Below are positions 29,201 through 32,200 of a stretch of DNA of 64,000 bases, piece by piece. Made by a program: the position numbers. The stretch is taken from NCBI RefSeq assembly GCF_000026545.1, contig NC_011601.1; one strand, 5' to 3'. Origin of the DNA: Escherichia coli O127:H6 str. E2348/69 (GTDB lineage Bacteria; Pseudomonadota; Gammaproteobacteria; Enterobacterales; Enterobacteriaceae). Every line of letters starts with the position of its first letter. Within the stretch, counting starts at the first letter, position 1.

Positions 29201-32200
29201 AAAGCACGGCTCGGGATCTGACGACACAGATCCTCGCCTGGCCACAAGAAGGCAAATCTGCCCGTGCTGTCAGTGGCCTGAACATCCTTACCCTGATGAA
29301 TAATGATATGGCGCTGATACAGCTGCACCATATATCCCAACGGGCGAAATCCCGCTCCTTACGTGATAACGCGGCGGAATTTCTTCAGGTGGTCGCAGAA
29401 AATCGCGGGCTAAGCCAGGAAGAGTTAGCGGACAGATTAGTCCCAACACTGGGTCTTGATGATCCGCAGGCGTTGATTTTTGATTTTGGTCCACGGCAAT
29501 TTACCGTTCGCTTCGATGAAAACCTCAACCCGGTTATCTTTGATCAGCAAAACGTTCGCCAGAAAAGCGTTCCCCGGTTGCGCGCCGATGACGATCAACT
29601 GAAAGCCCCCGAGGCACTGGCCCGACTAAAAGGGCTAAAAAAAGATGCGACTCAGGTGAGCAAAAACCTGCTCCCGCGTCTTGAAACTGCCCTGCGCACC
29701 ACCCGACGCTGGTCGCTGGCAGATTTTCATTCTCTGTTTGTTAATCATCCCTTTACCCGCCTGGTTACCCAGCGATTAATATGGGGGGTTTATCCGGCAA
29801 ATGAACCGCGTCGTTTACTCAACGCCTTTCGTGTGGCCGCAGAGGGGGAATTCTGCAATGCACAAGATGAGCCCATTGACCTGCCTGCGGATGCTCTGAT
29901 TGGCATTGCCCACCCGTTAGAAATGGCAGCAGAAATGCGCAGTGAATTTGCACAGCTTTTTGCCGATTACGAAATTATGCCGCCTTTTCGCCAGTTGGCG
30001 CGGCGCACGGTGCTGCTCACACCTGACGAGTCAGCCAGTAACAGCCTGACTCGCTGGGAAGGTAAATCCGCTACCGTTGGGCAACTTATGGGAATGCGAT
30101 ACAAAGGCTGGGAGTCAGGCTATGAGGACGCATTTGTCTATGACTTAGGTGCGTACCGGCTGGTCCTTAAGTTTTCACCCGGCTTTAACCACTACAGTGT
30201 TGATAGCAAAGCGCTAATGAGCTTCCGTTCTCTTCGGGTTTACCGTGACAATAAATCTGTCACTTTTGCCGAACTTGATGTGTTTGATTTGAGTGAAGCG
30301 TTAAGCGCACCCGACGTTATTTTCCATTAAAACACAGCGGGCAGTGATGCAACTGCCCGTTATCGACACGACTTACCTCCGGGAAAAGCGATGATCGTGC
30401 AAAAAGAGCTGGTTGCTATTTACGATTATGAGATCCCTGTACCTGAAGATCCGTTTTCCTTCAGACTTGAGATCCATAAATGCTCTGAATTATTTACAGG
30501 TTCCGTCTATCGACTGGAGCGATTCCGGCTACATCCAACATTTCATCAACGTGATCGAGAAGATGCCGACCACTAATAAATGGTGCGTTGATTTATATAA
30601 GAGATGAGTTTATTGATGAGCAGAAATTACGAGGTGAATCACATGAAACAGTAATAGCAATTTTTAATTATGAACTACAGAATATATTCAACCAAGAAAT
30701 AAAATAATATACTCTAGATAATTCAAGTCGCAGGAAGGCGATAAGCGAGTGAATCCCCAGGAGCTTACTAAAGTAAGTGACAGGGGTGAACGAACGCAGT
30801 CGCAGCACATGCAACTTGAAGTATGACAAGTAAAGCTTTATTAAAGGGGGAAACGGTATTCCCCCTTAAATGCGTTTCAATTTGCCCGTTACTTCAACAA
30901 ATCAATCAACCGTAACAGAGCCACTAATAACTCCAGTACGGCAATGAGCACGGTTAACTTTTGTGTCAGCGTGTCCATTCGCTCTCCTTATTAAGGAGCG
31001 CAACACCAGCATCTTACCCTTACACTGCCTGTCGATACTGGTTTACGTATGTTGAGTCGCCATGTTGCACTCCGGATCAGAGCACTACCTGCGGCACCAC
31101 CCGTCCGGTAGCCAGGACTTGAAATTGGTTCGATCCGGCGCAACTTCCCAACAGTCAGGATTATAAATCTCATTATCTTAATTGCAACGGGGTCCGTAGG
31201 TGGTTATAATTCGTTCGTTGGGGCGCCATGTTGCATAATCAGTAACTTAACGTCAAAGTTGTAAATAAAAGAACCTGCCTCACCAGCAGGTTTTTTTATT
31301 TTTTGCGATCTGCTTTCCAGATATTTTCCGCTCAAACAACTAATGCGCCAAACATTTATTGCGCGTAAAATATCGTTTATTTCATTAATACATTTCAGGG
31401 ATGAATATATGTCACCGCAGAATAATCACCTGCAGCGTCCGCCTGCTGCTGTGTTATACGCCGTTGAACTGGCAAAATTAAAACAAAATGATAACGCTCC
31501 TTGCCCGCCTGGTTGGCAGTTAAGTTTGCCTGCGGCCCGTGCTTTTATCCTTGGCGACGAAGCGCAAAATATTCGCCGTAAAGTGGTGATTAGTCCCTCT
31601 GCTGTCGAACGCATGTTAGTCACTCTTGCCACCGGGCGCGGTTTGATGTTGGTGGGGGAACCGGGTACCGCAAAATCTCTCCTGTCTGAATTACTGGCAA
31701 CCGCTATTAGCGGCGATGCCGGGTTAACCATCCAGGGCGGCGCATCTACCACTGAAGATCAAATCAAGTACGGCTGGAACTACGCTCTGCTTATCAATCA
31801 TGGTCCGTCAACGGAAGCGCTGGTTCCTGCCCCGCTTTACCAGGGAATGCGCGACGGCAAAATCGTCCGTTTTGAAGAGATAACGCGCACACCGCTGGAA
31901 GTGCAAGACTGTCTGTTAGGTATGCTTTCTGACAGGGTGATGACGGTGCCGGAACTCACTGGTGAAGCCAGTCAACTCTATGCACGGGAAGGCTTTAATA
32001 TTATTGCCACTGCCAATACGCGCGATCGCGGCGTCAATGAAATGAGTGCCGCGCTAAAGCGTCGCTTCGATTTTGAAACTGTCTTTCCGATTATGGATTT
32101 CGCCCAGGAGCTGGAGCTTGTCGCCAGTGCTTCGGCGCGTTTGCTGGCCCATAGCGGCATTCCGCATAAAGTGCCTGACGCGGTACTGGAGTTACTGGTC

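What the first reader, a model, noticed from the sequence alone, without database searches (positions are those of the whole stretch)
31160..31210. Back-to-back promoters sharing one palindromic -35 hexamer
TTGCAA at 31182..31187 is its own reverse complement. It has TATAAT 17 nt downstream on the plus strand (31205..31210) and TATAAT 16 nt downstream on the minus strand (plus coordinates 31160..31165). Two perfect -10 hexamers arranged symmetrically around a shared -35 suggests the toxin-like gene and the sRNA are driven by face-to-face overlapping promoters that cannot both be occupied by RNA polymerase at once, a possible built-in switch.
Basis: seen in the sequence. Interest (0 to 1): 0.45.

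Follow-up and report, generated by a model that had tools for sequence, protein, structure and literature searches.

The report
Known zorO–orzO toxin–antitoxin divergent promoter
The three hexamers are real and are the already published promoter elements of the E. coli ZorO toxin gene and its OrzO antitoxin RNA, which share a single -35 box; the idea that this sharing acts as a switch is plausible but has not been tested.

Summary
ATTATA (31160-65), TTGCAA (31182-87) and TATAAT (31205-10) give two 10/12 sigma-70 promoters, spacers 16 (minus) and 17 (plus), using one palindromic -35. None of 100 or 200 randomised sequences reproduce this.

[quoted passage not shown] The ORF at 30889-30978(-) is identical to published ZorO. 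Rfam OrzO-P hits 31224-31297(+) at 91.5 bits. The published 174-nt zorO leader puts its start at 31152, 8 nt past the minus -10. The published 18-bp pairing from OrzO +1 puts the sRNA start at 31217, 7 nt past the plus -10.

In 12 diverse copies the 18 hexamer positions never vary, while 15 of 33 spacer positions do. Shore et al. 2024 already list TTGCAA and TATAAT for both genes, and start sites were mapped in 2010, so the elements are known.

Mutual exclusion of RNA polymerase is expected from the geometry (one shared -35, about 46 bp footprint overlap). Nobody has measured interference, and the sequence asymmetries suggest a fixed bias towards the antitoxin, not a switch. The sister loci shoB-ohsC and tisB-istR-1 do not share a -35.

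Verdict: real, already known, low-to-moderate interest.

The parts
30840..30871 (-). Predicted zorO 3' hairpin (putative terminator), AAGGGGGAA-loop-TTCCCCCTT
   Evidence: Inverted repeat I6. It forms a 9-bp G/C-rich stem in the fold of the full mRNA. The U-tract is weak, so terminator function is inferred.
30889..30978 (-). zorO coding sequence, 29-aa hydrophobic toxin MDTLTQKLTVLIAVLELLVALLRLIDLLK
   Evidence: ORF list and translation. Identical to the published full-length ZorO peptide (PMC6669753).
30984..30989 (-). zorO ribosome-binding site AAGGAG (+164..+169 of the mRNA)
   Evidence: Matches the published RBS sequence and position (PMC5397157).
30979..31152 (-). zorO 5' untranslated leader, 174 nt, starting at G 31152
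   Evidence: Placing the RBS at +164 gives a TSS at 31152 and a leader of 174 nt, equal to the published length. The distance from -10 to ATG is the same in 8 of 9 full copies.
31050..31081 (-). OrzO target in the zorO leader (+72..+103; core +85..+103). This is the 'exposed after processing' region, also paired to the mRNA's own 5' end.
   Evidence: RNAduplex results and direct repeat D2. The site begins 72 nt upstream of the ATG, as in Fozo 2010. The MFE fold pairs +1..+22 with +74..+102.
31160..31165 (-). zorO -10 hexamer TATAAT (read on the minus strand)
   Evidence: Invariant in 12 of 12 copies. 100% conserved in 2,439 loci (PMC11264685 Table 3). The TSS lies 8 nt beyond it.
31166..31181 (-). 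zorO spacer, 16 nt. The spacer together with the adjoining zor -10 (31160-31181) is 86% A+T and lies upstream of the -35 for orzO, at about -37..-58, the UP-element position.
   Evidence: composition. Only 4 of 16 columns vary, against 11 of 17 in the orz spacer. An UP-element role is inference.
31182..31187 (.). Shared palindromic -35 hexamer TTGCAA, 4/6 match to TTGACA on each strand
   Evidence: Invariant in 12 of 12 copies. Listed as the -35 of both zor and orz with identical conservation figures. It is the only hexamer that gives 4/6 on both strands while keeping TTG on both.
31188..31204 (+). orzO spacer, 17 nt, sequence-variable between copies but constant in length
31205..31210 (+). 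orzO -10 hexamer TATAAT
   Evidence: Invariant in 11 of 11 copies that reach it. 99.8% conserved in the literature.
31217..31300 (+). orzO antitoxin sRNA, about 84 nt. The 5' end GUUGGGGCGCCAUGUUGCA pairs with the zorO leader. Rho-independent terminator at 31264-31300.
   Evidence: Rfam OrzO-P RF02083, 91.5 bits against a gathering score of 60, at 31224-31297. Fold. In an O-type copy, 18 continuous pairs start at the homologous G, as published. Term-seq places a 3' end at the homologous K-12 terminator, 2204485. About 85 nt on northern blots.

Best explanation
[quoted passage not shown] The three hexamers are the core sigma-70 promoter elements of the two genes. PzorO uses TTGCAA, a 16-nt spacer and TATAAT on the minus strand, and starts at G 31152 to give the 174-nt leader and the 29-aa toxin ORF. 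PorzO uses TTGCAA, a 17-nt spacer and TATAAT on the plus strand, and starts at G 31217 to give the ~84-nt OrzO sRNA, whose first ~19 nt pair with +85..+103 of the zorO leader. The two promoters are back-to-back and use the same six base pairs as their -35. The steps from here on are inferred. Because one -35 cannot hold two sigma region-4 domains, and the two expected footprints overlap by about 46 bp, only one polymerase can occupy the region at a time. The most likely consequence is a constitutive bias towards antitoxin transcription, plus genetic coupling of the two promoters (a -35 mutation hits both). A regulated switch is less likely. The asymmetries favour PorzO: an optimal 17-bp spacer, a G at -14, and an 86% A+T stretch in the UP-element position. 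I estimate a probability of about 0.45 that interference is measurable at native promoter activity.
For: Identity of the locus: ORF identical to published ZorO; Rfam OrzO-P above the gathering score; window 100% identical to E. coli ATCC 11775 with yehI/yehK/yehL as flanks. Promoter assignment: 10/12 matches on both strands. The published 174-nt leader and RBS at +164 place the zorO start 8 nt after the minus -10. The published 18-nt complementarity counted from OrzO +1 maps to the G 7 nt after the plus -10. The ~85-nt sRNA fits 31217-31300. Start sites of both RNAs were mapped by primer extension and the -35/-10 elements were boxed in published figures. Table 3 of PMC11264685 gives -35 TTGCAA and -10 TATAAT for both genes, 99.4-100% conserved in 2,439 loci. 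In my own alignment of 12 copies, 0 of 18 hexamer columns vary against 15 of 33 spacer columns (Fisher p = 3.6e-4), and spacer lengths are constant. Term-seq shows the K-12 orz-only copy, with identical hexamers, is transcribed and terminated where predicted. Geometry: start sites 65 bp apart, each 32.5 bp from the dyad, with 46 bp of footprint overlap. Asymmetry. Precedents for RNAP-RNAP exclusion at overlapping divergent promoters.
Against: No start site has been mapped in this particular strain, and I could not see the published figures, only their legends and tables. Sharing of the -35 is implied by the identical percentages in the published table; no text I could search states it. There is no direct evidence for interference. 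At five -10-sharing bidirectional promoters, basal activity was too low for competition. Both RNAs are detectable in the same cultures, so exclusion is not absolute at the population level. The UP-element role of the A+T-rich stretch is conjecture.
Confidence: 0.85

Rival explanations
1. Built-in switch. Mutually exclusive polymerase binding at the shared -35 makes toxin and antitoxin transcription anticorrelated. A change in conditions (supercoiling, ppGpp, carbon source, an unknown factor) flips the locus from antitoxin to toxin output.
For: The geometry makes exclusion physically likely. Both promoters are near consensus, so polymerase may dwell long enough to matter, and competition appears at symmetric promoters when activity is high. 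OrzO is abundant in exponential phase and falls in stationary phase, and expression of both RNAs is reported to depend on carbon source. mtrR/mtrCDE and aroP P1/P3 are precedents.
Against: No experiment addresses it; a 2025 review calls the regulation of the locus undeciphered. No regulator site is evident, and the palindrome does not extend beyond 6 bp. Control of ZorO is already explained post-transcriptionally, by leader structure, processing, OrzO pairing and RNase III. The orz-only loci keep the same core without any toxin to switch.
Confidence: 0.15
2. Independent firing. The overlap is only compact packing. Each promoter is occupied so briefly that the two behave as if separate, and sharing the -35 has no regulatory consequence.
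For: All five bidirectional promoters tested by Warman et al. 2026 showed no competition at basal activity. [quoted passage not shown] Both RNAs are detected together. Native zorO output is so low that ZorO protein was undetectable from a single chromosomal copy.
Against: These promoters are much closer to consensus (perfect -10s) than typical basal bidirectional promoters. The spacer lengths and all 18 hexamer bases are invariant although the orz spacer sequence drifts freely. That invariance is equally expected for two independent promoters, so it does not discriminate.
Confidence: 0.4
3. Positive coupling. Transcription from one promoter leaves negative supercoils behind the polymerase, which helps opening of the closely apposed divergent promoter, so that toxin and antitoxin transcription rise and fall together.
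For: Topological coupling of divergent bacterial promoters is documented (PMC5175336 and PMC4469952, abstracts). A 65-bp start-site separation is ideal for it. Co-variation would keep antitoxin in step with toxin.
Against: It needs alternating, not simultaneous, occupancy and has not been tested here. Perfect TATAAT boxes open easily and should depend little on extra supercoiling (inference).
Confidence: 0.15
4. Chance hexamers. The real promoters lie elsewhere and the symmetry is coincidental.
For: Single promoter-like matches are no more frequent here than in shuffles (2 found against 2.8 expected).
Against: 0 of 100 and 0 of 200 randomisations give the composite. Both experimentally derived 5' ends fall 7-8 nt after the -10 boxes. 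The hexamers are invariant in all copies. The literature uses the same elements.
Confidence: 0.02

Closest known systems
zorO-orzO / zorP-orzP type I toxin-antitoxin loci of E. coli O157:H7 EDL933 (Fozo 2010; Wen 2014, 2017; Shore et al. 2024)
   Same: Same genomic site (yehI/yehK-yehL). Identical ZorO peptide. OrzO-P Rfam family. 174-nt leader with AAGGAG RBS. Divergent sRNA pairing from its +1 with the leader about 72-92 nt upstream of the ATG. Same TTGCAA and TATAAT promoter hexamers.
   Different: This strain (sequence identical to ATCC 11775) has a single copy, not a tandem pair. Its OrzO pairing segment is a sequence variant: 6 + 13 bp with one mismatch, where the O-type has 18 continuous bp.
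shoB-ohsC and tisB-istR-1 (the other divergently encoded type I TA loci of E. coli)
   Same: Small hydrophobic toxin with a long structured leader. The antitoxin sRNA is encoded divergently and pairs with about 18-21 nt of the leader. OrzO gives weak Rfam similarity to OhsC (31.6 bits).
   Different: Their toxin and antitoxin promoters are separate. The published shoB promoter (GTGACC/TAAAAT) lies about 70 bp from ohsC's -35, with start sites about 140 bp apart. tisB is LexA-controlled with its own elements. Only zor/orz share a -35.
Bidirectional promoters in the sense of Warman, Grainger and colleagues (shared, symmetric -10 region)
   Same: Sequence symmetry lets RNAP bind in two orientations. 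One binding event excludes the other. Competition and its effect on noise have been shown.
   Different: There the -10 is shared, the -35s lie outside, and start sites are about 10-23 bp apart. Here the -35 is shared, the -10s lie outside, and start sites are 65 bp apart. Those authors do not class separate divergent promoters as bidirectional.
Overlapping divergent promoters with polymerase competition: aroP P1/P3 (E. coli) and mtrR/mtrCDE (N. gonorrhoeae)
   Same: Back-to-back promoters whose core or -35 regions overlap or abut on opposite strands. RNAP bound at one is reported or proposed to inhibit the other.
   Different: Those pairs involve regulators (TyrR; MtrR/MtrA) and non-identical -35 hexamers. 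Here a single perfectly palindromic hexamer serves both, no regulator is known, and interference has not been measured.

Membership tests
zor-orz type I toxin-antitoxin system | 29-aa hydrophobic Zor toxin ORF | tested here: met
   The ORF at 30889-30978(-) translates to MDTLTQKLTVLIAVLELLVALLRLIDLLK, identical to published ZorO. It carries T3 and A20, so it is the ZorO variant, not ZorP or ZorQ.
zor-orz type I toxin-antitoxin system | Orz antitoxin sRNA (Rfam OrzO-P, RF02083) encoded divergently from the toxin gene | tested here: met
   91.5 bits against a gathering score of 60, E = 2.6e-15, at 31224-31297(+), covering the full model.
zor-orz type I toxin-antitoxin system | At least 15 continuous or at least 17 discontinuous (one internal mismatch) base pairs between the Orz 5' end and the zor leader | tested here: met
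   OrzO +1..+6 and +8..+20 pair with leader +85..+103, 19 pairs with one mismatch. The rule is taken from Wen 2014 and Shore 2024.
zor-orz type I toxin-antitoxin system | Long (about 174 nt) structured leader with RBS AAGGAG, located between yehI/yehK and yehL | tested here: met
zor-orz type I toxin-antitoxin system | Toxicity of Zor on overproduction, and rescue by Orz through RNase III | not testable with these tools
   Shown for the EDL933 genes. The ZorO peptide here is identical, but the OrzO pairing segment is a variant.
Sigma-70 promoters (both PzorO and PorzO) | -35-like and -10-like hexamers 16-18 bp apart, with the start site 6-8 nt after the -10 | tested here: met
   10/12 matches with spacers of 16 and 17. 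The start sites inferred from published transcript data fall 8 and 7 nt after the -10 boxes.
Sigma-70 promoters (both PzorO and PorzO) | Experimentally mapped primary 5' ends and loss of transcription on hexamer mutation | not testable with these tools
   Primer extension was done in EDL933 and the figures were not viewable. I found no hexamer mutagenesis reported.
Bidirectional promoter (shared -10, Warman/Grainger definition) | Divergent start sites either side of or within one shared -10 element, typically 10-23 bp apart | tested here: not met
   Two separate -10 boxes 39 bp apart and start sites 65 bp apart. Definition.
Overlapping divergent promoters with RNAP competition | Core recognition elements of two divergent promoters physically overlap | tested here: met
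   The same 6 bp serve as the -35 on both strands, and the predicted footprints overlap by 46 bp.
Overlapping divergent promoters with RNAP competition | Occupancy or activity of one promoter measurably reduces the other | not testable with these tools
   I found no data for this locus.

The most novel reading that the evidence does not exclude
The shared palindromic -35 is a transcription-level safety and bet-hedging device that is specific to zor-orz among type I TA loci. Only one polymerase can load at a time. The asymmetric spacers and the A+T-rich upstream stretch bias loading towards the antitoxin. Rare or condition-dependent loading in the toxin direction then gives anticorrelated bursts of toxin and antitoxin RNA in single cells. 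Because both RNAs start with the same GUUGGG, placed symmetrically about the dyad, and bind the same leader segment, the module would be a fully symmetric 'one site, two outputs' element.
Probability: 0.15. Interest if true: 0.5.

Novelty: already known. Interest (0 to 1): 0.25.

Why it matters
Type I toxins must be kept silent but inducible, and for zorO nothing is known about control at the level of transcription. If the shared -35 does force polymerase to choose a direction, the locus would be a compact natural example of toxin/antitoxin ratio control before any RNA is made. It would also be a natural test case for -35-sharing promoters, complementing the recently studied -10-sharing class. 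As it stands, the finding re-discovers published promoter elements of a characterised system. Its practical value is a sharply defined and cheap experiment: -10 knockouts on each side, or a spacer insertion at the dyad.

Tried and rejected
1. A genome-contig scan with the OrzO terminator as bait (AAAARAACCTGCC-N5-8-GCAGGTTTTT), meant as a promoter-unbiased way to find homologues outside E. coli. So I could not test cross-species conservation, and my prior estimate of chance hits was wrong.

2. Genome-wide 5'-end data for the K-12 orz-only copy. The Cappable-seq table is stored truncated, and Thomason 2015 and Bogati 2022 are not held. Only Term-seq 3' ends were recovered.

3. The idea that shoB-ohsC has the same architecture. 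A scan suggested overlapping TTGTAA/TTTACA hexamers, but the published shoB promoter is a different, distal one. Rejected.

4. Origin of orzO by inverted duplication of the zorO promoter plus leader. Apart from the hexamers and GUUGGG the arms are not similar (18 of 53 identities). Not supported.

5. A regulator-binding palindrome. The dyad symmetry does not extend beyond the 6-bp TTGCAA.

6. A fuzzy-regex search timed out and was replaced by blastn.
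Full report
**Observation.** The plus strand at 31160-31210 reads ATTATA-AATCTCATTATCTTAA-TTGCAA-CGGGGTCCGTAGGTGGT-TATAAT. The consensus scan finds exactly two promoter-like sites in 30000-32500, and they are these. On the plus strand: TTGCAA, 17 nt, TATAAT. On the minus strand: TTGCAA, 16 nt, TATAAT. Each matches 10 of 12 positions. Single promoter-like matches are not enriched here (2 found, 2.8 expected). The composite is another matter. It occurs once in 64 kb and in none of 100 dinucleotide-preserving shuffles. With relaxed rules (any two opposite-strand promoters of at least 9/12 whose -35 hexamers overlap by at least 4 bp) it is still the only case in the window. 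Simulation gives a mean of 0.34 per 64 kb at 9/12 or better, and 0 of 200 reach 10/12. The arrangement is back-to-back (divergent), not 'face-to-face'.

**What the locus is.** Downstream on the minus strand lies a 29-codon ORF (30889-30978) encoding MDTLTQKLTVLIAVLELLVALLRLIDLLK. This is identical to the published ZorO toxin peptide (PMC6669753). Downstream on the plus strand, Rfam's OrzO-P antitoxin family (RF02083) matches 31224-31297 over its full length at 91.5 bits, against a gathering score of 60. The flanking ORFs are yehI, yehK and yehL. The segment is 100% identical to E. coli ATCC 11775 and is found in 5,231 of 5,426 complete E. coli genomes, about two-thirds of them with the full zor-orz segment and the rest with only the orz part. 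[quoted passage not shown] It was discovered between yehI and yehL in O157:H7 (Fozo et al. 2010, PMC2887945) and characterised by Wen et al. 2014 and 2017.

**Do the hexamers sit where the mapped RNA ends need them?** Wen 2017 give a 174-nt zorO leader with the RBS at +164..+169. The RBS AAGGAG is at 30989-30984, which places +1 at G 31152. That is a leader of exactly 174 nt, starting 8 nt beyond the minus-strand TATAAT. The distance from -10 to ATG is the same in eight of nine full copies examined.

For the sRNA, Wen 2014 state that removing 3 or 6 nt from the OrzO 5' end leaves 15 or 12 nt of continuous complementarity, so 18 nt of pairing start at OrzO +1. In an O-type copy, RNAduplex gives exactly 18 continuous pairs beginning at the G that lies 7 nt after TATAAT. 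The homologous base here is 31217. From 31217 to the end of the terminator U-tract (31299/31300) is 83-84 nt, which fits the ~85-nt northern band. In K-12, which carries an orz-only copy with the identical 51-bp architecture, Term-seq reports an orphan plus-strand 3' end at 2204485. That is exactly at the predicted terminator (Adams et al. 2021, supplementary file 1). Both start sites were mapped by primer extension in 2010, and Wen 2014 Fig. 1A and Wen 2017 Fig. [quoted passage not shown]

**Conservation.** I aligned 12 copies: this window, O-type and P-type tandem copies, other variants, K-12-type orz-only loci and an IS1-truncated locus. All 18 hexamer columns are invariant and both spacer lengths are constant. 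By contrast, 15 of 33 spacer columns vary (Fisher p = 3.6e-4), and the OrzO pairing segment varies at 14 of 28 columns. This agrees with Shore et al. 2024 (PMC11264685, Table 3). They report -35 (TTGCAA) at 99.4% for zor and 99.4% for orz, and -10 (TATAAT) at 100% and 99.8%, in 2,439 loci, with similar figures for 656 orz-only loci. The same hexamer and identical percentages for both genes imply that the authors scored one shared -35. I found no sentence that says so or discusses it, and no paper in the searchable library links orzO with overlapping, bidirectional or interfering promoters.

**Mechanism: shown and inferred.** It is shown, here or in the literature, that two near-consensus promoters diverge from one -35. 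The start sites are 65 bp apart, each 32.5 bp from the dyad centre (spacer 16 + discriminator 7 on one side, 17 + 6 on the other).

The rest is inferred. Sigma region 4 of two polymerases cannot occupy the same six base pairs in opposite orientations, and nominal -55..+20 footprints overlap by 46 bp, covering most core elements of both promoters. Simultaneous open complexes are therefore very unlikely.

TTGCAA is the best possible in-register compromise. Of 4,096 hexamers only six reach 4/6 matches on both strands, and TTGCAA is the only one that keeps TTG on both.

The two sides are not equal. PorzO has the optimal 17-bp spacer, a G at -14, and an 86% A+T stretch (the zorO spacer and -10) where an UP element would lie. 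PzorO has a 16-bp spacer and 48% A+T upstream. The zorO spacer is also much less variable than the orzO spacer, 4 of 16 columns against 11 of 17. I therefore expect a standing bias towards antitoxin transcription, not a toggle.

Whether exclusion matters depends on dwell time. In the Bendtsen et al. model, interference scales with the fraction of time RNAP sits on a promoter. Warman et al. 2026 found no competition at five -10-sharing bidirectional promoters at basal activity, but strong competition once one direction was strengthened. No such experiment exists for zor-orz, and a 2025 review calls its regulation undeciphered.

My estimates for the consequence of sharing are as follows. These overlap and are not meant to sum to 1.
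- Measurable interference: about 0.45.
- No measurable consequence: about 0.4.
- Supercoiling-mediated positive coupling: about 0.15.
- A genuinely regulated switch, which is a subset of the first: about 0.15.

**Comparison with known systems.** The locus is a member of the zor-orz family, and all sequence-testable defining features are met (see the membership table). Among the three divergently encoded type I TA loci of E. coli, the shared -35 is peculiar to zor-orz. The published shoB promoter (GTGACC/TAAAAT) is about 70 bp from ohsC's -35, and tisB/istR-1 have separate elements. It is not a 'bidirectional promoter' in the Warman/Grainger sense, which shares the -10 and has start sites 10-23 bp apart. 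It does belong to the older, established class of overlapping divergent promoters in which RNAP at one promoter can repress the other, such as aroP P1/P3 and mtrR/mtrCDE with adjacent -35 hexamers.

**RNA-level context noticed on the way.** Both transcripts begin with GUUGGG. In the predicted fold of the full-length zorO mRNA, the 5' end (+1..+22) pairs with +74..+102, with 17.7 expected pairs from base-pair probabilities. OrzO +1..+20 binds the same segment. This fits the published finding that removing the first 28 nt exposes +73..+102 and activates translation. It also means OrzO imitates the mRNA's own inhibitory 5' end. Outside these functional elements the two arms are unrelated, so I do not claim an inverted duplication.

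**Verdict.** The promoter interpretation is correct but already published: start sites in 2010, boxed elements in 2014 and 2017, hexamer conservation in 2024. The 'switch' is an untested extrapolation with a plausible physical basis. Novelty: already known. Interest is low to moderate, and the residual value is a clean, inexpensive experiment on -35-sharing promoters in a toxin-antitoxin setting.

**Limits.** I could not view the published figures. No start-site data exist for this strain. The cross-species scan failed, and two genome-wide TSS resources were unavailable.

Noticed in passing
window 31147-31152 (-) and 31217-31222 (+); zorO leader +74..+102 = 31079-31051: Both RNAs start with GUUGGG, placed symmetrically 32.5 bp from the dyad. 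The zorO mRNA's own 5' end is predicted to pair with the same leader segment that OrzO targets, so the antitoxin imitates the mRNA's inhibitory 5' end.
   Followed up: partly
L002, L006, L131 (K-12-type orz-only loci); MG1655 2204345-2204395: Toxin-less loci keep the complete core, including the zor -10, plus about 32 nt of the zor leader, all with the same deletion junction. The orphan zor-side promoter now points into the 3' end of yehK and could make an antisense RNA. Only the plus-strand sRNA is documented, with Term-seq 3' ends at 2204485 and an internal one at 2204446.
   Followed up: partly
L007 901-977 and 1041-1738: In strain S1-INA-02-A the homology stops 8 bp after the shared -35 (window-equivalent 31195). 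An IS1A follows, and the next gene is yehR. So orz and the yehL-side genes are lost while the zor-side promoter remnant stays.
   Followed up: partly
window 30707-30830: A ~125-bp imperfect palindromic element lies between yehK and the zorO 3' hairpin. It gives a weak Rfam V_AS5 match (28.4 bits, far below gathering). From memory it resembles an ERIC/IRU intergenic repeat. Not tested.
   Followed up: no
window 31217-31302: OrzO gives sub-threshold Rfam matches to OhsC (31.6 bits, starting at the same G 31217) and to Salmonella STnc370 (31.7 bits). The similarity is mostly in the terminator. It could be chance or distant kinship between divergent antitoxin sRNAs.
   Followed up: no
window 30391-30707: yehK appears split into two ORFs in different frames (61 aa at 30391-30576 and 39 aa at 30588-30707), whereas K-12 yehK is a single 318-bp gene. 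It is possibly a frameshifted pseudogene in this strain, as annotated in L004.
   Followed up: no
alignment A1, columns 67-82 versus 89-105 (window 31166-31181 versus 31188-31204): The two spacers evolve very differently. The A+T-rich zor spacer varies at 4 of 16 positions, and the orz spacer at 11 of 17. This suggests an extra constraint on the zor spacer, perhaps as upstream DNA for the orzO promoter.
   Followed up: partly
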